From assembly GCA_020054035.1 (NCBI GenBank), contig JAGVLY010000017.1:1961-65960 (forward strand): 64,000 nucleotides of DNA, written 5' to 3'. Positions 3,193 through 22,181 of the stretch are shown one piece after another. Position 1 is the first letter of the stretch, and every line of letters starts with the position of its first letter. Below the pieces are notes generated by a model, which worked only from the letters and a program-made list of their open reading frames with translations, was not told where the DNA came from and ran no database searches. The stretch is from Bacteroidia bacterium. GTDB taxonomy: Bacteria; Bacteroidota; Bacteroidia; SXHM01. The position numbers and the translations under genes were made by a program.

Positions 3193-4191
3193 TTACGGTA
3201 AAACTCTTAATAATGTATTTCTTAATAATACTTCTATACCAAGCAGAAGCAAAGCAGCTAAAGCAAACGGCAAAAACTCTTCTTTCTTTTTCCTGAACTC
3301 TGTAACATCAATTTTAGATTTTTCCAGTTCATCAATTTGCTGATAAACCTGCTCTAATTTACTATTATCGGTTGCACGGAAATACTGCCCGTCTGTCATA
3401 GCAGAAATTTTCTTCATCATGTCTTCGTCTATCTTCACTTCCATATCCTGATAAACCGTTTGTCCGAACATATTTTTTGCAGGATAAGGAGCCATTCCCA
3501 TTGTTCCCACTCCTACTGTGTAAACCCTGATGCCAAAGGTTTTTGCAATTTCAGCAGCGGTCAAAGGCGGAATAGAACCGCCTGTATTTACACCATCCGT
3601 AAGCAAAATAATCACCTTGCTTTTCGCTTCGCTGTCTTTCAATCTTTTCACAGCAGTTGCCAAGCCCATACCGATTGCTGTTCCGTCTTCAATCAAACCG
3701 TTTTTTATTCCTCCGAAAATATTAAGCAGCACCGAATGGTCAGTAGTCAGCGGGCATTGCGTGAATGCTTCACCTGCAAAAACAACCAATCCCATTCTAT
3801 CTGTCGGGCGGCCTGAAATAAAATTCATTGCCACCTTTTTGGATGCTTCCAAACGGTTAGGCTTGAAATCTTCTGCCAGCATACTTCCCGAGATATCCAT
3901 TGTTATTACAATGTCAATCCCCTCGGTTGTTACATTCTGCCAGCTGCTGCTGCTTTGCGGACGAGCAAGCGCTGCAGAAAGAAAAGCAATGCACAACATG
4001 CGCAACACAAAAGGAAGATGAACCATCTTCTGACGGAACGTTTTTGGTGCATTCCTGAAATTTTCAAGCGATGAAAAACGAATGTTGGCTCGCTGACTGT
4101 TATTGCGTTTCCAATACCAGAAACTCAGTAGCGGAATAAGTGCTAAAAGCAGAAACCAATAAGGATGTGCAAACTCAATTCCGTTCATCAT
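3193..4191 (-). CDS. batA: BatA-like VWA domain membrane protein
   Basis: 332 aa. The N-terminal HPYWFLLLALIPLL is typical of BatA. The VWA domain carries DISGSM, and a C-terminal transmembrane segment is present. It overlaps the upstream gene by 4 nt. Confidence 0.85.
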   Translation of the reverse strand: MMNGIEFAHPYWFLLLALIPLLSFWYWKRNNSQRANIRFSSLENFRNAPKTFRQKMVHLPFVLRMLCIAFLSAALARPQSSSSWQNVTTEGIDIVITMDISGSMLAEDFKPNRLEASKKVAMNFISGRPTDRMGLVVFAGEAFTQCPLTTDHSVLLNIFGGIKNGLIEDGTAIGMGLATAVKRLKDSEAKSKVIILLTDGVNTGGSIPPLTAAEIAKTFGIRVYTVGVGTMGMAPYPAKNMFGQTVYQDMEVKIDEDMMKKISAMTDGQYFRATDNSKLEQVYQQIDELEKSKIDVTEFRKKKEEFLPFALAALLLLGIEVLLRNTLLRVLP

Positions 4192-16561: not shown

Positions 16562-19500
16562 CTATCTAACCACCAACTTCACAGTTTTGGCAGATTTATC
16601 AGTAACAATGCGGGCGAAGTATAAACCTGCAGGTTGTTGCTGTGCATCAAACTTCAAATTATGTGTTCCTTCCGTTGCTTTACCGTTGAACAGGTTAGCA
16701 ACCAGTTTACCTTCCATATTGAATACAGTAACATTCATGTTGGTTTTCTCATTCAGGGTAACCGCAATAGTAGTTTCACCGCTGAAAGGATTTGGGTAAG
16801 CCAACACGTTTGCAATAGCAGGAATATGGTCTTCAACACCAACTGTTACGTTGATATTCTGAACCAGCGTATCATTACCGCAAGGGCTGTAAGCAATTAA
16901 TGTAACCACATAAGTACCGCTTGTAGTGTATGTATAAGTAGGGTTCTCATCTGTTGATGTTGCACCGCTTACACCAAAATCCCACAGGTAAGAATCTGCA
17001 TCGGTAGAAGTATTGGTGAAAGAAGCTGTAAACTGATCCGATGAAGAAGTGAAATCAGCAGTAGCGCCTACTAAGAAAATAGTTCCTGTGTAAACAGTGT
17101 TCTGCGGATCCCAGTTAGCCCAGCAAGCTGTCCAGTCTGTTGCACCAAAAGCACCTTTATAAGTAACATCTTCAAAGAAGGCATCCTGCAAATTAGCGTT
17201 GGTAAAATCAGCACCACTCAATAATGGTGAACCTGATTGTGGTAACAACACAGGTGCTGTTAAATCGTTGGTAGGGTAATCAACCAACAGATTATTGTTA
17301 TCGGTAAGCAGGGTATTATTAAAACCTGAAGTATTGAACCAGGTGGTAATATCCCAGCTGCTACCAGAAGCAACAGCAAGTGGTGTAGTACATGCTGAAA
17401 GAATGTTGTTGCGGTATTGCAACAGATTATTGGTTGCATTGCTCTCGGTTGTTGCAGCATCAATTAACAAACCGGTTGGGTAACCTGCTTCTACTGTATT
17501 GTAAATGCTGGTTTGTGTGTTTCTGCGCAAGTGAGCCGCACGTTTGTAGTTGCTGTTGATGGTAGTATTAGCATCTAACAGCGGACCAAAAATGCTGAAG
17601 TTCGAGAAGATAGGGTGAGTAACCGGTGTAGCAGTTGTTCCGCTTGCATCGTTATCACTTTCAAAACCATTTGAACCGCTTTGGTCAGCTACAGCCGCAT
17701 CACGGATAGAAACACCGAATTGCAATTTTCCGCTGAAACCGTTGTCGGTATCAAAATCATCATCCCAACCGCGGTGTGCGATAAGGTGTTTTGCATTTAC
17801 GCTTCCGCCAAACCACTCATAAGAGTCATCGCCTGAATAAGAAATCTGAATGTTTTCAATTACTGTTCCGCTACCTACTCCACCTAATGTTAATCCATTA
17901 ATCTCTTGGTTTGGTTGGAAAGGAATTCCGGGGAACTCAATACGTAAATAGGTTAAAGAACCTGAGTTGTCAGCATCATCAGGGCTGTTACCACCACCGA
18001 ATGTTGCTCCTGTTCCGCCTTCTACAACACCTTCGCCACCGGGCAGGTTGATGGTAGCTTTACCGCAAAGGATAATGCCACCCCAATCTCCATAGCTACG
18101 TTGACCTGCAGCTTGGTTAGATGTGAAAACAATTGGTTGATTTACTGTTCCGTTTGCAATCAGTTTACCGCCACGCTCAACAATAAGTGTTGCTTTGGTT
18201 GATTGCTCGCCACGGATAAGTGTTCCGGGTTGAATAGTAAGTGTAGCACCATCTTTCACGTAAACAAAACCACTTAATAAATACGTGTTGGTATTGTACC
18301 ATGTTGTGTTGGTAGTGATGTTTCCTGTAACAGTAATTGCTTCGCTGCTCAGGTTCATGGTTTGTGTGTTGCTATTTGTTCCGCAAGAATTGGTTGCAGT
18401 TAAAACAACATCGTAAGAACCATCTGCTGCATAGTTATGTGTAGCATTGGTAGTAGTTGCGTGTGCGCTTCCATCACCAAAATCCCAGTCGTAGGTATTT
18501 CCGTTTCCGGTTGAAGTATTGGTGAAGTTTACCAGCAATGCAAAACCTTGTGCTACAAAATGAGCGGCAGGTGCTGCGTTTACGGTTACGGTAGTTTGTG
18601 TTGAAGCTGCAGTGCAACCGTTTCCATCGGTAACGGTAACACTGTAAACACCTGTAGCATTAACGGTGATAGCTTGTGTAGTTGCTGCATTGCTCCATAG
18701 ATATGACGCATTAGAAGCAGCAGTTAAAGTAATCGTGTTAGGTGTGCAGAAAGTAGTAGCTCCGCTTGGAGTAACAGTAGCATCGGGTGTGTTCACCGTT
18801 ACAGTAGTTGCAGCCGAAGTAGCTGTGCAACCTCTTGCGCTCCAAACCTGAACTGAATAATCGCCTGAGGTAGTAACGTTAATAGATTGTGTAGTTGCTC
18901 CGTTGCTCCACAGGAAAGAAGTTCCTGCGCTGGCAGTTAAAATTACTGAACCACCGTTGCAAAATGTTGTTGGTCCGTTTGCATTGATAGCGATTACAGG
19001 AGTGTAATCAACCGCTCCGTTGTAGATTTCGTTTTGCGGATCCCATTCTGTCCAGCAAGATGTCCAGTCTTCAGAACCAAAAGCACCACGGAAAGTAGTA
19101 GGCTCAAAATATGAATCCTGTAATTGAGCATCGGCAAAGCTTGCACCGCTCAAAAGTGGTGAACCAGTTTGTGGTAAAAAATTGGGGTCAGCTAAGTTGT
19201 AACCATCAGCTACCATTAAATCAGTAGTGTTTGCCAATAAAGTATTGTTAAAACCTACAGTATTGAACCATGCACCGATATCCCATGTGCTTGAAGCAAT
19301 GGTATCCATCGGGTTTGGGCAACCTGCGATTATGTTGTTTTGAAATTTAAGTGTGCCGTTGGTTGCGTTGGCTTCGGTTGTAGCGGCATCAATCAATAAG
19401 CCGGTAGGAAAACCGGAAATCATTGAATTGAAAATATTGGTTGCTGTGTTTCTGCGAAGGTGAGCACCTCTTTTATAGTTGCTGTTAATAGTAATGTTTG

Positions 19501-20362
19501 CGTCAACTTTAGGACCAAAGATGCTGATGTTAGAAAACACAGGATGTGTTTGTGGTATTCCCGCAGTTCCTGTAGCATCGTTATCGCTTTCAAAACTGTT
19601 TGAACCGCTTTGGTCGGCAGTAGCAGGGTCGCGTAATGAAACTCCGTACTGAATTTTTCCGCGAAAACCATTGTCGGTATCAAAGTCATCGTCCCAGCCA
19701 CGGAAAGCAACCAGACGTTTTGCGTTTACTGCTCCTCCGAAGAACTCATAGGAGTCATCACCGGAATAAGAAATCTGTACATTCTCGATAATAGTTCCGC
19801 TACCAACTGCGCCCAAGGTAAGACCGTTAATCTCTTGGTTAGGTTGGAAAGGAATTCCGGGAAACTCAATACGCACGTATTTTAGTGTTCCTGAGTTGTC
19901 GGCATCATCGGGTGTTAAACCACCACCATAATAAGAGCCTACACCGCCTTCTATAACGGCTTCGCCTCCGGGCTGGTTGTTGTTTGCTTTTCCGCAGATG
20001 ATAAGGCCACCCCAGTCGCCATAGTTACGCGCTGTTGGTGATTGGTCTGAGGTGAATACAATAGGTTGGTTAGGAGTTCCTATTGCCATGATTTTTGAGC
20101 CGCGCTCAATAATAAGCGTGCCCTGTGAAATTTTTTCTCCTTTAATAACAGTGCCTTCCTGAATGGTAAGCACTGCATTGTTTTTTACATACACCCAACC
20201 GCTTAACAAATATACGTTGTCATTTGTCCAGTTGGTGTTGGTGGTAATATCGCCCGTAACGGTGATGTTGGCTGCGATACTACCGGCAATGGTGGCAACA
20301 ATGAGTGCTGCCGCAAGTAATAGTTTTCGTTTCATTTGTTTTATTGTTTTTAGTTGGCGCAA
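16562..20362 (-). CDS. large T9SS-secreted surface protein with internally duplicated ~430-aa beta-helix-like modules, Ig-like Cys-pair domains, two PKD domains and a C-terminal T9SS sorting domain
   Basis: 1266 aa with a signal peptide (MKRKLLLAAALIVATIAGSIAA). The two modules both begin ITVTG(D/N)ITTNT and share the conserved blocks NQPIVFTS, YGDWGG, DDADNSG, GIPFQPNQEINGLTLG and ISYSGDDSYE. PKD motifs are present (WDFGDGS, YLWDFG). The C-terminus is AYPNPFSG...LYFARIVTDKSAKTVKLVV, typical of the T9SS CTD. Confidence 0.85.
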   Translation of the reverse strand: MRQLKTIKQMKRKLLLAAALIVATIAGSIAANITVTGDITTNTNWTNDNVYLLSGWVYVKNNAVLTIQEGTVIKGEKISQGTLIIERGSKIMAIGTPNQPIVFTSDQSPTARNYGDWGGLIICGKANNNQPGGEAVIEGGVGSYYGGGLTPDDADNSGTLKYVRIEFPGIPFQPNQEINGLTLGAVGSGTIIENVQISYSGDDSYEFFGGAVNAKRLVAFRGWDDDFDTDNGFRGKIQYGVSLRDPATADQSGSNSFESDNDATGTAGIPQTHPVFSNISIFGPKVDANITINSNYKRGAHLRRNTATNIFNSMISGFPTGLLIDAATTEANATNGTLKFQNNIIAGCPNPMDTIASSTWDIGAWFNTVGFNNTLLANTTDLMVADGYNLADPNFLPQTGSPLLSGASFADAQLQDSYFEPTTFRGAFGSEDWTSCWTEWDPQNEIYNGAVDYTPVIAINANGPTTFCNGGSVILTASAGTSFLWSNGATTQSINVTTSGDYSVQVWSARGCTATSAATTVTVNTPDATVTPSGATTFCTPNTITLTAASNASYLWSNAATTQAITVNATGVYSVTVTDGNGCTAASTQTTVTVNAAPAAHFVAQGFALLVNFTNTSTGNGNTYDWDFGDGSAHATTTNATHNYAADGSYDVVLTATNSCGTNSNTQTMNLSSEAITVTGNITTNTTWYNTNTYLLSGFVYVKDGATLTIQPGTLIRGEQSTKATLIVERGGKLIANGTVNQPIVFTSNQAAGQRSYGDWGGIILCGKATINLPGGEGVVEGGTGATFGGGNSPDDADNSGSLTYLRIEFPGIPFQPNQEINGLTLGGVGSGTVIENIQISYSGDDSYEWFGGSVNAKHLIAHRGWDDDFDTDNGFSGKLQFGVSIRDAAVADQSGSNGFESDNDASGTTATPVTHPIFSNFSIFGPLLDANTTINSNYKRAAHLRRNTQTSIYNTVEAGYPTGLLIDAATTESNATNNLLQYRNNILSACTTPLAVASGSSWDITTWFNTSGFNNTLLTDNNNLLVDYPTNDLTAPVLLPQSGSPLLSGADFTNANLQDAFFEDVTYKGAFGATDWTACWANWDPQNTVYTGTIFLVGATADFTSSSDQFTASFTNTSTDADSYLWDFGVSGATSTDENPTYTYTTSGTYVVTLIAYSPCGNDTLVQNINVTVGVEDHIPAIANVLAYPNPFSGETTIAVTLNEKTNMNVTVFNMEGKLVANLFNGKATEGTHNLKFDAQQQPAGLYFARIVTDKSAKTVKLVVR

Positions 20363-20449
20363 AACTATTGGTGCAACATCACGACAGAATAAATTTGAGG
20401 TTACATGATTCTTATGATTGTGTTAAGGGAGTGTGAACAGAGTTTCCTG

Positions 20450-20490
20450 AAAACAACAAAGCCCCGCAATTGCAGGGCTTTGTTTACAGA
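20450..20490 (-). terminator. hairpin terminator downstream of minus-strand gene 20503..21195
   Basis: aaagcccc-gcaattgc-agggcttt (20458-20481). The stem is aaagccc/gggcttt with a palindromic core. On the minus strand a T-rich tract follows (gttgttttc). Confidence 0.5.
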
Positions 20491-20502: not shown

Positions 20503-21195
20503 TTACACTTCTTTTACGGTAATGGTTTGTTCTACGCTAAACTCGCCAATGGGCTGTTCGTTTTTAAAGTAGCGCAGACGGTAAGTCCATTTTTGGCTGG
20601 TGCCTGATGGCGGTAGCGGGCTTTTGTCAAGGTAATTGGGTGTAAGATCAAAGTCAAGGCGGGCAAAGCTGCCGTTGTCCACCTTTTTTTCAATGAAAAT
20701 GCCATCGCTTTTCAGCTTTTTCCAGGTTATTAAAACCTGCCCGGCTACCAGTTCTAAGGTAAACACGGGTTTGTAAGTGCTGTAATCCACAGTGCTTTCG
20801 GGGGCTTCAATCATCAGGTCTTCGCCAATGGCTTTGGTGTAGTTCTGGTGTGCTTTAATTCGTGAGGCAAGGGTTCGGAAGCGGCCTTCAACATTGGGCT
20901 GTATGGTAACAGCTGATGGAGGCACGCTAACATCCGGAGCAGTAGGAAACGGAGGTATTATAGTTCCATCGCCTCCATAGCGCATCTGGTTTTTAAGTTT
21001 GGTCCAGTCCTGGGCAAAGGCCGGAATTACAGCATGTTTTGGGATTACATACTTAACCCAGTCTGCATCAACATCCACTGAGGCTACCTCGGCCGGTGTG
21101 ATGCCAAACATACCCGCATAAAGCGGTAGTTTTTCTTTGAAGTTTTCGATTTGCAGTAGAAAATCGATGTCTGAATTTTTTACATAGGGTGCCAT
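20503..21195 (-). CDS. hypothetical protein (no signal peptide, no recognisable motif)
   Basis: 230-aa ORF, co-directional with and 31 nt downstream of the repeat-protein gene. Confidence 0.55.
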   Translation of the reverse strand: MAPYVKNSDIDFLLQIENFKEKLPLYAGMFGITPAEVASVDVDADWVKYVIPKHAVIPAFAQDWTKLKNQMRYGGDGTIIPPFPTAPDVSVPPSAVTIQPNVEGRFRTLASRIKAHQNYTKAIGEDLMIEAPESTVDYSTYKPVFTLELVAGQVLITWKKLKSDGIFIEKKVDNGSFARLDFDLTPNYLDKSPLPPSGTSQKWTYRLRYFKNEQPIGEFSVEQTITVKEV

Positions 21196-21226
21196 AGTTT
21201 TTTGTTTTAAGGGTTAATATTCAGGG

Positions 21227-21580
21227 TTAATTGGTTTTAAAAAGAATTGTCCGTAACAGCATTTTGCTGATTGTGTCTGTGGCAGCAACAACTGGCGCAA
21301 TGGTGGCAACAGCTGACGCTATGATAGCGACAAGTGTGTCTGAGCTGGACACAACTGTGTCTGAGGTAGCAACAGCTGTGTCTATGGTGGCAACAGGTGT
21401 GTCTGTGGCAGCAACACCTGTGTCTGTGGCAGCAACAGCTGTGGCTGCGGTACCGACAGCTGTTACTGTGGTGGCGACAACTGTTTCTATGTCAGCGCCA
21501 GCTGGCGCTATGGTGGCAACAGGCGCTTCTGTGGCAGCGACAGCTCTGTCTGTGATAGAAACTTGGTGCTTTGTATTCAA
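21227..21580 (-). CDS. small heptad-repeat (Ala/Thr/Asp/Val-rich) protein encoded by a 21-bp tandem repeat; coding strand uncertain
   Basis: 117-aa minus-strand ORF with about 10 heptads of the form VAATDTG/VATIDTA. An overlapping plus-strand ORF (21231..21605) is also open. Minus is favoured because it lies 10 nt from the upstream minus gene and 31 nt from the downstream minus gene. Confidence 0.4.
   Translation of the reverse strand: MNTKHQVSITDRAVAATEAPVATIAPAGADIETVVATTVTAVGTAATAVAATDTGVAATDTPVATIDTAVATSDTVVSSSDTLVAIIASAVATIAPVVAATDTISKMLLRTILFKTN
21273..21562. repeat. imperfect 21-bp tandem repeat array, ~14 copies (consensus gtgtctgtggcagcaacagct)
   Basis: Successive 21-mers can be read directly: gtgtctatggtggcaacaggt / gtgtctgtggcagcaacacct / gtgtctgtggcagcaacagct / gtggctgcggtaccgacagct and so on. 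Confidence 0.85.
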
Positions 21581-21590
21581 AATCGGTTTT

Positions 21591-21839
21591 TTAGTTCTGG
21601 TTTAAGTTATTAAAGCGCTCGGCATAATAAGGTGATACCTCTGAAAAGGGAATGCCCAACTGCTCACACATTACGCTTATCTTTTGGGGCGATGCAAACT
21701 TGGTACCTTTATAGTAACAGCATCCGTTGGTTTCGCAAACGCCTATTTTTTGAAGAAATAGTTCTCTTGATATCTTGTATTTTTTTACAACCTCCAGAAA
21801 ATCGAGGTGCAGTATTTTGCAGAAATCTTGGTAGCGCAT
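21591..21839 (-). CDS. small putative DNA-binding (HTH-like) protein
   Basis: 82 aa. ISRELFLQKIGV resembles an HTH recognition region, and the ORF is Cys-rich (CETNGCCYY). It is the first gene of the three-gene minus-strand cluster. Function is uncertain. Confidence 0.35.
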   Translation of the reverse strand: MRYQDFCKILHLDFLEVVKKYKISRELFLQKIGVCETNGCCYYKGTKFASPQKISVMCEQLGIPFSEVSPYYAERFNNLNQN

Positions 21840-21935
21840 TTTTCCCTGATTGAGTGCAAGGCAAATGGAAGAAAAAATGAAATAATTTTATAGTATATTA
21901 GAGATTGTTGAGGTAATTCCTACTTATAAGGGGAA

Positions 21936-22181
21936 TTGTGGCAAGTTTTTATAGATTTGTTGAGGATATTTAATGTTAGTGGCTATTATAACGACACACA
22001 GCACATGGTAAACCGACAAGTAAATAAACAGGACATTTTAGAGGCGTTGACCTTCATTGACAAAAATGGAGTTCCGTCAAACAGACGTGCGACTAAATAC
22101 AATCTGTATCATAACGACAAATCCTATCCGCCTAAATACGTTCTATCAATTGCGACAAAAAATGCCACAGGCAGAGTGTAA
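21936..22181 (+). CDS. orphan 81-aa ORF with weak resemblance to McrA-type 'head'/DNA-modification-sensing N-terminal domains; possibly a gene remnant
   Basis: DILEALTFIDKNGVPSNRRATKYNLYHNDKSYPPKYVLSIA resembles the ...ILkAi..fd..G...f....g....Yfl.y.gk.Y.sKailg.A pattern. It sits alone in an AT-rich 450-bp intergenic region. Confidence 0.25.
   Translation: MWQVFIDLLRIFNVSGYYNDTQHMVNRQVNKQDILEALTFIDKNGVPSNRRATKYNLYHNDKSYPPKYVLSIATKNATGRV

What the first reader, a model, noticed from the sequence alone, without database searches (positions are those of the whole stretch)
20503..21839. Three-gene minus-strand cluster built around a 21-bp tandem repeat encoding Ala/Thr/Val heptads that reads open on both strands
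Positions 21273-21562 contain about 14 imperfect copies of a 21-mer (gtgtctgtggcagcaacagct). Both strands are open across the array. The minus strand gives VAATDTG-type heptads and the plus strand gives VSVAATA-type heptads, so the coding strand cannot be settled by ORF logic alone. Minus-strand coding gives a tidy operon: a Cys-rich 82-aa HTH-like protein, then a 117-aa repeat protein, then a 230-aa protein with no homology I recognise, then a hairpin terminator. Intergenic gaps are 10 and 31 nt. Thr/Ala/Val heptads with regularly spaced Thr/Asp recall beta-solenoid ice-binding or adhesin-like surfaces, but there is no signal peptide. A 21-bp array is also a candidate contingency locus, since copy-number slippage would stay in frame. 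The sequence-level facts are the array and the dual open frames. The protein-level reading is inference.
Basis: partly seen in the sequence, partly recalled or inferred. Interest (0 to 1): 0.6.

Follow-up and report, generated by a model that had tools for sequence, protein, structure and literature searches.

The report
Period-locked 21-bp array before Fn3 gene
The 21-bp tandem repeat is real, but it is probably not a conserved repeat-protein gene: repeats with the same 21-bp spacing and a completely different sequence sit in front of every relative examined (bar two) of the neighbouring gene, a large protein family of unknown function, so the repeat more likely acts at the DNA or RNA level.

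Summary
Positions 21272-21562 hold 13.9 head-to-tail 21-bp units (68% match, no indels). One frame is open on each strand. The ORFs, the gaps of 10 and 31 nt and the terminator are as described.

The 230-aa neighbour has three N-terminal helices, a Pro-rich linker and a C-terminal Fn3 domain. It belongs to an unannotated family of about 3,000 clusters. In about 20 loci (25-100% protein identity), all but two carry an array of period 21, 42, 63 or 84 just upstream on the same strand. The unit sequence is unrelated between loci, including the closest relative (68% identity).

- No peptide motif, charge or structural class is conserved.
- Conserved bases form contiguous, often palindromic cores.
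- Codon usage of the open frames resembles wrong-frame DNA.
- Some arrays have no start codon, and one distant array has stops in all six frames yet keeps exact 63-nt spacing.
- AlphaFold gives a helix, not a beta-solenoid.
- No copy-number variation was seen where it could be checked.
- The 82-aa ORF is lineage-specific and not demonstrably an HTH.

The array is most likely a cis-acting repeat in the transcribed leader of the Fn3 gene. Its mechanism is unresolved. Sense-strand stop-codon depletion remains unexplained.

The parts
21272..21562 (-). Tandem array of 13.9 units of 21 bp. On the gene strand each unit reads as an imperfect 16-bp palindrome AGACACAG|CTGTTGCT centred on CAGCTG, plus a 5-bp spacer.
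   Evidence: TRF. Unit table and per-position entropy. Palindrome count of 3-8 of 8 pairs per junction. WC-only folding z = -2.29 against the column-permuted null. No significant unit-to-unit covariation.
21227..21580 (-). Sense-strand open frame across the array (117 aa, TTG start, VAATDTx heptads). It may be translated, but it is not a conserved protein.
   Evidence: No ATG. Mean log RSCU is -0.040, against 0.109 ± 0.035 for real genes, and 4 of 16 Val codons are the rare GTC. AF2 gives a long helix at pLDDT 82 in 2 of 5 models. No Pfam, NCBIfam or PADLOC hit.
21231..21605 (+). Antisense open frame across the array (124 aa, VSVAATA heptads). It is most likely a by-product of unit composition.
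   Evidence: The antisense strand is closed in L001, L007, L008, L009 and L011 and shows no excess of open frames overall. Its gene-like RSCU of 0.103 rests on only about 7 codon types.
20503..21195 (-). 230-aa protein with three N-terminal helices (9-73), a Pro-rich linker, two short helices and a C-terminal Fn3 beta-sandwich (145-228). It is the conserved partner of the array and founds a large unannotated family.
   Evidence: AF2 pLDDT 86.8. Foldseek matches Fn3 domains only, in PDB and BFVD. 40 close homologues. 3055 representatives at E <= 1e-3. No Pfam, NCBIfam or PADLOC family.
21196..21240 (-). A-rich leader before the ATG with a conserved TTAACC..TAAAA motif. Most relatives also have TATATA(A/T)AA upstream of it.
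   Evidence: Alignment of the 85 nt before the ATG in 18 loci.
21591..21839 (-). 82-aa ORF with 5 Cys. It is probably a real gene but is lineage-specific. The HTH reading is unverified, and it is not part of the conserved module.
   Evidence: One homologue at 78% identity. No family hit. hhalign against the SinR HTH gives 0.4%. Absent from the other loci.
21862..21869 (-). TCCATTTG, a near match to the Bacteroidetes -7 promoter box TAnnTTTG, 22 nt before the ATG of the 82-aa ORF. Its context resembles the TACATTTGCC boxes of L007 and L019.
   Evidence: Direct reading. Positions of TAnnTTTG in relatives. The promoter consensus comes from general knowledge, so the assignment is an inference.
20448..20484 (-). 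Intrinsic terminator that closes the transcription unit.
   Evidence: A 13-bp stem plus U-run, -28.1 kcal/mol, z = -5.6.

Best explanation
The array is the window's copy of a conserved, non-protein-level element. It is a block of about 100-290 bp of head-to-tail units whose period is locked at 21 bp or a multiple. It lies between a promoter and the A-rich start region of an uncharacterised Fn3-domain protein gene, on the same strand.

The unit sequence turns over completely between lineages by concerted evolution. Three things are kept: the period, the position, and a tendency of each unit to be self-complementary.

I infer that it acts in cis on expression of the downstream gene. The most likely form is a phased platform of operator-like palindromes spaced two DNA helical turns apart, sitting in the transcribed leader. 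A repeated-hairpin leader RNA is the alternative form.

The open reading frames are a consequence of stop-free units. They may be kept stop-free so that ribosomes or RNA polymerase can pass through the long leader. They do not encode a conserved protein.

Shown: the anatomy, the conservation pattern, and the lack of coding signatures. Inferred: the regulatory role, and the choice between DNA and RNA. The binding partner is unknown.
For: **The array goes with the gene, and its sequence does not matter**
- Ten genomic loci, five metagenomic loci and further contigs encode homologues of the 230-aa protein. All but L013 and L014 have an upstream array on the gene strand.
- Autocorrelation peaks at 21, 42 or 63 in every one of these.
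- Units are unrelated between loci, and also between paralogues within one genome.

**The array evolves faster than its flanks, by concerted change**
- L002 and L003 have proteins 88% identical and leaders about 85% identical, but arrays only about 50% identical. Both keep a TGCCAA.GC core and a 42-nt dimer.
- L004 and L006 differ at 24 of 179 array positions against 2 of 89 flank positions.

**There is no coding signature**
- Unit variability shows no third-position excess.
- Conserved bases form contiguous cores: L002 GTGCCnAnGCnC, L008 ACTGCCGGCAAT, and CAnnTGT in the window.
- Heptads differ in charge and class between orthologues.
- Open sense frames score -0.38 on a codon-usage scale where 0 is wrong-frame DNA and 1 is a real gene (n = 32 frames). 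The best frame per locus averages about 0.05.
- The window's minus ORF scores -0.040.
- L001 and L023 have no start codon, and the window has only TTG.

**Self-complementarity**
- Nine of 18 arrays fall below z = -1.64 against column-permuted nulls, with mean z = -1.64.
- The G-U asymmetry shows no consistent strand preference, which favours DNA-level symmetry over RNA.

**A distant, clearly non-coding member keeps the phasing**
- L028 has stops in all six frames. It still has four GGTGCA-N9-TGCACC palindromes at exactly 63, 63 and 63 nt, and four TTCCAATCATTGGAA palindromes at 32, 33 and 32 nt. These spacings are about 6 and 3 helical turns.

**The array is transcribed in the gene's orientation**
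- TAnnTTTG boxes lie just upstream of the arrays in L016, L007, L019, L011 and L015.

**Only the Fn3 gene is shared by the loci**
- An all-against-all comparison of neighbouring ORFs in 19 loci finds no other shared gene.
Against: - Stop codons are depleted on the sense strand: 28 stop-free frames against 17.6 ± 2.7 expected. The antisense strand shows no depletion, with 15 against 16.8. Every array except the distant L028 has at least one open sense frame. Ten of 18 have an ATG-initiated array-spanning ORF that ends 7-80 nt before the gene. This is what translation would predict.
- Two orthologue pairs show a small excess of synonymous differences in one frame (and hand count).
- No binding protein is identified. 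The Fn3 protein has no recognisable nucleic-acid-binding fold, and its N-terminal domain is not basic.
- Small HTH genes lie next to the array in only 3 lineages.
- Predicted intrinsic curvature is not elevated.
- Within the window's own array, unit-to-unit covariation for the palindrome is not significant.
- Two family members, L013 and L014, lack an array.
- No expression data were available.
Confidence: 0.5

Rival explanations
1. The minus-strand ORF is a real, translated, very fast-evolving heptad-repeat protein. It would be low-complexity, helical or disordered, and would work with the Fn3 protein encoded next to it. Concerted evolution of the repeats erases sequence similarity between lineages.
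For: - Stop codons are depleted on the sense strand only, and the array has no indels despite 32% unit divergence.
- The period is always a multiple of 3.
- ATG-initiated ORFs of about 90-160 aa begin 20-25 nt after a promoter box in L011 and L016, and similar ORFs exist in 10 of 18 loci.
- Gene callers call a sense ORF in L017 and L021.
- In the ATG frame, the A-type units of L002 and L003 keep R/F-A-K/N-A-R-S/I-I with three synonymous codon changes (hand count).
- In the window, Val at heptad position 1 is kept with GTT, GTC and GTG.
- AF2 gives a confident long helix in 2 of 5 models.
- In P0137 and L030 the array is in frame with the downstream gene.
Against: - No peptide motif, charge or structural class is conserved, even at 68% identity of the neighbouring protein.
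- Most heptads contain Pro or Gly and lack an a/d hydrophobic pattern.
- Codon usage is at wrong-frame level across 16 loci.
- Start codons are missing in L001 and L023, and the window has only TTG.
- L028 is closed in all frames but still phased.
- Conserved nucleotides are contiguous rather than codon-periodic.
- Coding alone does not explain why the period is never 15, 18, 24 or 27.
- Gene callers disagree on the strand. In L016 they chose the antisense.
Confidence: 0.25
2. The array is an essentially neutral or selfish minisatellite that settled in a permissive leader, or in an upstream small ORF, of this gene family. It persists because in-register slippage preserves the period. Selection only removes variants that create polarity, such as stop codons or terminators. 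This is the logic proposed for MIRU repeats.
For: - Sequence turnover is fast and concerted, and the array changes about 6 times faster than its flank.
- Hairpin-prone units are expected to expand more easily, which would explain palindromy as a mutational bias.
- Stop-codon avoidance occurs without gene-like codon usage.
- L013 and L014 have lost the array without losing the gene.
- Mycobacterial MIRU repeats are a precedent: repeat-borne ORFs coupled to the downstream gene so that the insertion is harmless (PMC12548453).
Against: - The array persists at the same position across a family that has diverged to 25-30% identity and spans several phyla.
- Total length stays within about 100-290 bp.
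- L028 keeps exact 63-nt spacing while its spacers have diverged. All three points suggest selection.
- Units are not dispersed elsewhere in the window.
- ORF-to-ATG gaps of 7-155 nt are not the -4 overlap typical of MIRU.
Confidence: 0.15
3. The array is a contingency (phase- or antigenic-variation) locus whose copy number changes rapidly between cells or strains.
For: - It is a tandem array with a short unit inside a transcription unit.
- (AG)n tracts of 7.5-22 copies lie upstream of the array in four related loci and differ in length between loci.
Against: - A 21-nt unit keeps the frame, so it offers no ON/OFF switch.
- Units are 68% matched, so the array is old and diverged and is a poor slippage substrate.
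- Arrays are identical in L019/L020, L021/L022 and L023/L024, and 24 contigs of the P0033 locus collapse to one neighbourhood.
- The product has no signal peptide, so it has no surface exposure.
Confidence: 0.05
4. The plus-strand ORF (124 aa, VSVAATA heptads) is the real gene.
For: It is open across the array. Its synonymous codon usage is gene-like, at 0.103.
Against: - That score rests on only about 7 codon types.
- The antisense strand is closed in many related arrays and shows no excess of open frames.
- The ORF would be convergent with and overlapped by the operon, and it has only a TTG start.
Confidence: 0.02

Closest known systems
MIRU-type intercistronic minisatellites of mycobacteria
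   Same: Both are tandem repeats lying between co-oriented genes. Both carry a co-oriented open frame whose peptide is not thought to matter, which is tolerated or kept because it avoids polarity on the downstream gene (PMC12548453).
   Different: - MIRUs are dispersed at many loci of one genome with a shared sequence, and they overlap the downstream start codon by 4 nt.
- Here the unit is locus-specific and is not dispersed in the 64-kb window.
- The frame ends 31 nt before the gene.
- The element is tied to one protein family across phyla.
Iteron, operator and centromere arrays (plasmid iterons of 17-22 bp; sopC of F, twelve 43-bp repeats; parC). Recalled from general knowledge.
   Same: Both are direct repeats at about one, two or four helical turns. 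The units often contain an inverted repeat, and they form a platform for cooperative binding next to the gene they control.
   Different: - Those arrays have a known cognate binder (Rep, SopB, ParR) encoded beside them, and their sequence is conserved within a replicon family.
- Here no binder is identified.
- The sequence is not conserved.
- The loci are chromosomal, with no plasmid or phage homologues.
Fast-evolving low-complexity repeat proteins (heptad or other short-unit surface and disordered proteins)
   Same: Both have an in-frame short tandem unit, concerted evolution, and a repeat motif that differs between relatives.
   Different: - Such proteins keep conserved non-repeat flanks, a secretion signal or an anchor, and gene-like codon usage.
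- Here the flanks are not conserved, there is no signal peptide, and codon usage is wrong-frame-like.
REP/BIME palindromic repeats
   Same: Both are short palindromic units of about 20-40 nt, sometimes clustered head to tail. The sequence is specific to a lineage.
   Different: REPs are dispersed in hundreds of copies and are linked to RAYT transposases. Here there is a single array per locus, no RAYT, and a strict 21-nt period.
CsrB/RsmZ-type repeated-hairpin RNAs
   Same: Both have many similar short hairpins in one transcript.
   Different: - Those RNAs carry a conserved loop motif (GGA) that is bound by a global protein.
- Here there is no motif shared between loci, no strand-consistent G-U pattern, and no Rfam match.

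Membership tests
Beta-solenoid / ice-binding or adhesin repeat protein | Repeat units predicted to form stacked beta-strand coils | tested here: not met
   AF2 in single-sequence mode gives one long helix over residues 31-115 and no strands. pLDDT is 82 in 2 of 5 models and 49-65 in the others.
Beta-solenoid / ice-binding or adhesin repeat protein | Conserved Thr/Asx ladder motif in homologues | tested here: not met
   Heptads are unrelated in relatives, for example QRSVRVE, TAGNKSA, HSTPGWS and RAEAPKV.
Beta-solenoid / ice-binding or adhesin repeat protein | Export signal for a surface or extracellular role | tested here: not met
   The N-terminus MNTKHQVSITDRAV... has no hydrophobic signal segment (direct reading).
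Contingency locus (simple-sequence phase variation) | Copy number differs between strains or assemblies | tested here: inconclusive
   Arrays are identical in three related loci seen in two assemblies each, and 24 contigs collapse to one neighbourhood. The paired assemblies may come from the same samples. The window's own lineage has no second copy in the databases.
Contingency locus (simple-sequence phase variation) | Slippage changes the reading frame or the promoter spacing | tested here: not met
   The unit is 21 nt, so it preserves the frame. The array lies downstream of the promoter-like box.
Iteron / operator / centromere array | Direct repeats in helical phase, with internal dyad symmetry | tested here: met
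   The period is 21, 42 or 63 in all arrays. Palindromy is significant in 9 of 18 arrays, and the window scores z = -2.29.
Iteron / operator / centromere array | Cognate DNA-binding protein encoded beside the array | tested here: inconclusive
   The window's 82-aa ORF is not demonstrably an HTH. A GerE-type gene sits upstream of the array only in L032 (E = 1e-18) and, more weakly, in L017 and L003. The Fn3 protein has no known DNA-binding fold.
Iteron / operator / centromere array | Repeat sequence conserved among related elements | tested here: not met
   Unit sequences are unrelated between loci.
MIRU-like intercistronic repeat | Repeat-borne ORF overlaps the downstream start codon (-4 spacing) | tested here: not met
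   The gap is 31 nt in the window and ranges from -16 to +155 nt in relatives.
MIRU-like intercistronic repeat | The same unit is dispersed at many loci of the genome | tested here: not met
   All matches in the 64-kb window lie inside the array. The whole genome was not available.
CRISPR array | Repeats separated by unique spacers, with cas genes nearby | tested here: not met
   The units are head to tail with no spacers. No cas-like neighbours appear in the ORF and Pfam scans of the region.
Known structured RNA family (Rfam) | Match to a covariance model | tested here: not met
   No match reaches a gathering threshold in the window. Only sub-threshold chance hits appear, and they are driven by the terminator.
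XRE/Cro-type HTH (82-aa ORF) | Profile match to an HTH family | tested here: not met
   Pfam and NCBIfam give no HTH hit. There is no PDB relative. hhalign against the SinR HTH gives 0.4% probability.
Fibronectin type III domain (C-terminus of the 230-aa protein) | Seven-strand beta-sandwich that matches solved Fn3 domains | tested here: met
   The AF2 model places strands at 145-228. Foldseek matches Fn3 domains at E of about 1e-4 in PDB and 4e-6 in BFVD. The Pfam sequence model does not detect it.

The most novel reading that the evidence does not exclude
A previously undescribed class of cis-element. It is a 'period-locked, sequence-free' 21-bp array that has co-evolved for a very long time with a large Fn3-protein family (about 3,000 clusters) across Bacteroidota and at least one PEP-CTERM-bearing lineage. 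Each paralogue would carry its own private repeat. The array would be read by a locus-specific partner as a private address that controls the Fn3 gene and perhaps the secreted-protein gene that usually follows it. That partner might be the Fn3 protein itself through its N-terminal three-helix domain, or a small regulator.
Probability: 0.25. Interest if true: 0.85.

Novelty: new variant of a known kind. Interest (0 to 1): 0.62.

Why it matters
If the association holds across the family, thousands of bacterial genomes carry an unannotated gene preceded by a repeat whose spacing is conserved while its sequence is free. Homology-based annotation cannot see this kind of signal.

Gene callers now turn the array into spurious 'hypothetical proteins', on either strand.

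The system would also give a clean natural test of what a period of two helical turns, or a heptad, is selected for when sequence is not.

The frequent pairing with secreted T9SS or PEP-CTERM cargo genes hints at a role in surface-protein expression.

Tried and rejected
- **Intrinsic DNA curvature as the reason for the 21-bp period.** A wedge-model path calculation gives mean z = -0.34 against column-permuted arrays, and the window's array is straighter than the null. The parameters were written from memory, so this is a soft rejection.
- **Strand-specific RNA hairpins.** Folding energies favour the gene strand in some arrays (L011, L023) and the opposite strand in others (L008, L002, the window).
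- **Unit-to-unit covariation in the window's palindrome.** It is not significant: 72.1% of cells are paired, against 70.6% after shuffling.
- **Third-codon-position variability as a strand or frame test.** It showed no signal. In the window it cannot separate the strands, because the two open frames share wobble positions.
- **Synonymous/non-synonymous counts between L004 and L006.** One frame shows a weak excess (9/12 against 4-5/15-17). The result is confounded by unit shuffling.
- **Searches that found nothing.**
  - Phage or plasmid origin: no viral contig, phage or plasmid homologue.
  - Defence-system membership: no PADLOC hit for the 230-aa or repeat ORFs, only a weak chance-level HamA match (E = 0.007) for the 82-aa ORF.
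  - Remote homology of the 230-aa family to solved structures by sequence.
  - Pfam and NCBIfam on 33 diverse members.
- **Copy-number variants of a related array ORF in the protein database.** The homology search gave nothing, and the exact sequences are not in the collection.
- **Literature searches for a described 21-bp array in Bacteroidetes.** Nothing relevant was found.
- **A sigma-54 reading of the TGCC/GGCA motifs.** Rejected by inspecting the spacing.
Full report
**1. The observation**

Tandem Repeats Finder reports an array at 21272-21562 with period 21, 13.9 copies, 68% matches and no indels. Higher-order periods of 42 and 63 are also present. The quoted 21-mer matches five times at up to 3 mismatches against none expected. 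All five matches lie inside the array, and no other sizeable tandem repeat exists in the 64 kb.

One frame is open on each strand: a 117-aa ORF on the minus strand (21227-21580) and a 124-aa ORF on the plus strand (21231-21605). The minus ORF has only a TTG start. The two frames share their third codon positions, so codon-position arguments cannot separate the strands in this window.

The 82-aa and 230-aa ORFs, the gaps of 10 and 31 nt, and a strong terminator after the 230-aa gene are all as described. The terminator has a 13-bp stem and a U-run, with z = -5.6.

The surrounding genes identify a Bacteroidota chromosome. They include a T9SS cargo protein with Por_Secre_tail, a TonB-dependent receptor and RelA/SpoT.

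**2. The neighbouring genes**

*The 230-aa protein.* It has no Pfam, NCBIfam, PHROG or PADLOC family. An AlphaFold2 model built on 40 homologues has pLDDT 86.8. It shows:
- three long N-terminal helices (residues 9-73);
- a Pro-rich linker;
- two short helices;
- a C-terminal beta-sandwich (residues 145-228).

Foldseek matches only Fn3 domains, both in PDB and among viral models. The protein has no signal peptide and no transmembrane segment.

A profile search of 1.84 billion representatives finds 3055 proteins at E <= 1e-3 and 390 at E <= 1e-30. Nearly all of the 150 best hits listed are about 225-235 aa long. Thirty-three diverse members have no Pfam or NCBIfam family. The family has no homologue in the phage, plasmid or viral collections.

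*The 82-aa ORF.* It has a single homologue at 78% identity. No HTH family matches it, and hhalign against the SinR HTH gives 0.4% probability. It is probably a real gene, but the HTH label is unverified.

**3. The key comparative result**

Loci encoding homologues were collected from genomes, metagenomes and assemblies: L001-L032, about 20 independent loci spanning 25-100% protein identity.
- Every locus with enough upstream DNA, except L013 and L014, has a tandem array immediately upstream of the gene and on its strand. The period is 21, 42, 63 or 84.
- Autocorrelation peaks at 21, 42 or 63 in all of them.
- The unit sequence differs completely between loci. This holds for three paralogues in one genome (L002, L007 and L008) and for the window's closest relative, L016 (68% protein identity). 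The window's unit is GTTGCTGCCACAGACACAGCT and L016's is CAACGGAGCGTCCGTGTCGAA.
- An all-against-all comparison of neighbouring ORFs in 19 loci finds that the Fn3 gene is the only gene shared.

The module sits in unrelated neighbourhoods, including inside a nuo operon. The conserved unit is therefore the array plus the Fn3 gene.

A distant member, P0137, was called with an N-terminal read-through of GDNDELL x5. The association therefore extends into the wider family.

**4. Anatomy of the module**

Bacteroidetes-type -7 boxes (TAnnTTTG; consensus from general knowledge) lie about 430-530 nt before the Fn3 start codon in L016, L007, L019, L011 and L015. That places them just upstream of the array. 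The array is therefore transcribed in the gene's orientation.

The window has TCCATTTG 22 nt before the 82-aa ORF, in a context resembling the boxes of L007 and L019. This comes from reading and is an inference.

An A-rich leader with conserved TATATA(A/T)AA and TTAACC..TAAAA motifs lies between the array and the ATG.

Total array length stays within about 100-290 bp.

**5. Is it coding?**

*Evidence for translation of the sense strand:*
- Against a null that permutes unit columns, the gene strand has 28 stop-free frames over 15 arrays, against 17.6 ± 2.7 expected (0 of 2000 permutations reach 28). The opposite strand has 15 against 16.8.
- Stop trinucleotides in any phase are rarer than their reverse complements in 14 of 19 arrays.
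- Ten of 18 arrays have an ATG-initiated array-spanning ORF that ends shortly before the gene.
- Two orthologue pairs show a small synonymous excess in one frame (and a hand count).

*Evidence against a conventional protein:*
- Heptads share no motif, charge or structural class.
- Variability among units shows no third-position excess. In the window, the third positions of three codons are invariant while the first and second positions vary.
- Conserved positions form contiguous cores.
- L001 and L023 have no start codon in the open frame, and the window has only TTG.
- In the window, synonymous codon usage of the minus ORF is -0.040. Real genes score 0.109 ± 0.035 and wrong frames score -0.029 ± 0.061. 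Four of its 16 Val codons are GTC, which has a genome RSCU of 0.10.
- Over 16 loci, open sense frames score -0.38 on a scale where 0 is wrong-frame DNA and 1 is a real gene. Even the best frame per locus averages about 0.05.
- In the distant member L028 the array has stops in all six frames.
- Gene callers disagree on the strand or call nothing.

AlphaFold2 on the 117-aa sequence alone gives one long helix and no beta-structure. This refutes the beta-solenoid idea, though it is weak evidence for anything else.

**6. Nucleic-acid-level features**

Many units contain an inverted repeat whose sequence is locus-specific:
- ACGGA-GCG-TCCGT in L016;
- TGCCGGCA in L008;
- GTGCC-GA-GGCAC in L002;
- GCAAGAAT-C-ATTCTTGC in L003;
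- GGGTGGAGT-C-ATTCTACCC in L011;
- ACATAAAAAT-C-ATTTTTATGT in L027.

With Watson-Crick pairs only, 9 of 18 arrays are significantly more self-complementary than column-permuted versions. Mean z is -1.64 and the window scores -2.29. L006 and L030 are not self-complementary.

The window's unit reads as a 16-bp imperfect palindrome, AGACACAG|CTGTTGCT, plus a 5-bp spacer. Covariation between its units is not significant.

Between L002 and L003, a G-C pair of the unit's stem is replaced by T-A (reading).

The strand that folds better with G-U pairs differs between loci. This argues against a strand-specific RNA structure and for DNA-level symmetry or a mutational bias.

L028 keeps four GGTGCA-N9-TGCACC palindromes at exactly 63, 63 and 63 nt while the spacers between them have diverged. 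It also has four TTCCAATCATTGGAA palindromes at 32, 33 and 32 nt. These spacings are close to integral numbers of helical turns.

Predicted intrinsic curvature is not elevated, so curvature alone does not explain the period. The parameters were written from memory.

Rfam has no match.

**7. Evolutionary dynamics**

Arrays diverge faster than their flanks, and they do so by concerted change.
- L002 and L003 have proteins 88% identical and leaders about 85% identical, but arrays only about 50% identical. Both keep a TGCCAA.GC core and a 42-nt dimer.
- L004 and L006 differ at 24 of 179 array positions against 2 of 89 flank positions.

Where one locus was seen in two assemblies, the arrays are identical. 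This holds for L019/L020, L021/L022 and L023/L024. In addition, 24 contigs of one locus collapse to one neighbourhood. These results give no sign of rapid copy-number change. The test is weak, and it could not be run on the window's own lineage.

**8. Explanation**

The best-supported reading is that the array is a cis-acting repeat in the transcribed leader of the Fn3 gene, constrained in period, position and partial dyad symmetry but not in sequence. Its open frames are by-products, possibly kept stop-free to avoid polarity. I put this at 0.5.

Within this reading I favour a DNA-level phased platform over an RNA hairpin leader. No binder is identified, and this step is an inference.

The rivals are:
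- a real but very fast-evolving heptad-repeat protein (0.25);
- a tolerated, MIRU-like minisatellite (0.15; precedent in PMC12548453);
- a contingency locus (0.05);
- a plus-strand gene (0.02).

Sense-strand stop-codon depletion is the main fact that the favoured model does not explain well.

**9. Novelty**

I found no description of this association in Pfam, NCBIfam, Rfam, PADLOC or the literature searches. It fails the tested defining features of iterons, MIRUs, REPs, CRISPR arrays, contingency loci and beta-solenoid repeat proteins.

I file it as a new variant of a known kind, namely repeat arrays in gene leaders. There is a 0.25 chance that it is a new class of element.

Noticed in passing
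L001:5557-5600; L009:2-34; L019:7607-7623; L007:5666-5680: Perfect (AG)n microsatellites of 22, 16.5, 8.5 and 7.5 copies lie about 50-60 nt upstream of the 21-nt array, inside the presumed leader. In L007 and L009 the tract is followed by a conserved ATTCCTTTTA. The window has no such tract.
   Followed up: partly
window 16562-20362 (-): The 1266-aa T9SS cargo protein just downstream is an internal tandem duplication. Its two roughly 600-aa halves both begin ITVTG(D/N)ITTNT. It also has PKD domains and a Por_Secre_tail.
   Followed up: partly
Genes downstream of the Fn3 homologue in L001, L006, L007, L009, L011, L015, L016, L017 and L021, and both flanks in L027: The next co-oriented gene almost always encodes a protein with a signal peptide. 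The families vary: a T9SS C-terminal domain (CHU_C or Por_Secre_tail) in the window, L017 and L021, with L015 resembling one only by eye, and PEP-CTERM proteins on both sides in the non-Bacteroidota locus L027.
   Followed up: partly
L023:5167-7212 and L024: The array plus the Fn3 gene, together with a 275-aa RHS-repeat protein, sit inside a NADH dehydrogenase operon between nuoL-like and nuoM-like genes. This looks like an insertion.
   Followed up: no
L014:2590-2790; L013: Two family members lack the array. In L014 the position holds a MITE-like element with long inverted ends (GGGATAAG...CTTATCCC), a perfect central palindrome and GTCATTCCGA-type repeats.
   Followed up: no
L028:3347-3458 and 3665-3874: There are two separate sets of four palindromes upstream of a distant family member. 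One is TTCCAATCATTGGAA at 32-33 nt spacing. The other is GGTGCA-N9-TGCACC at exactly 63 nt spacing. The centre AATCATT also recurs in the palindromes of L001, L003 and L027.
   Followed up: partly
P0137 (N-terminus); L030:3839-4822: In two distant loci the array's open frame continues without a stop into the Fn3 gene. In P0137 the called protein begins with GDNDELL x5.
   Followed up: no
L017:7270-7542; L003:5223-5507; L032:3201-3518: A small GerE/LuxR-type HTH gene lies immediately upstream of the array, in the same orientation, in two unrelated lineages. The Pfam match is strong in L032 (E = 1e-18) and weak in L017 (E = 0.003).
   Followed up: partly
window 21936-22181 (+): An 81-aa ORF runs divergent from the operon (…NRRATKYNLYHNDKSYPPKYVLSIATKNATGRV). 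It has no family hit, and it looks like a fragment of a larger protein.
   Followed up: no
window-wide codon usage (29 long ORFs): The Val codon GTC is almost absent from this genome's genes, with an RSCU of 0.10. This is much more extreme than for other C-ending codons.
   Followed up: no
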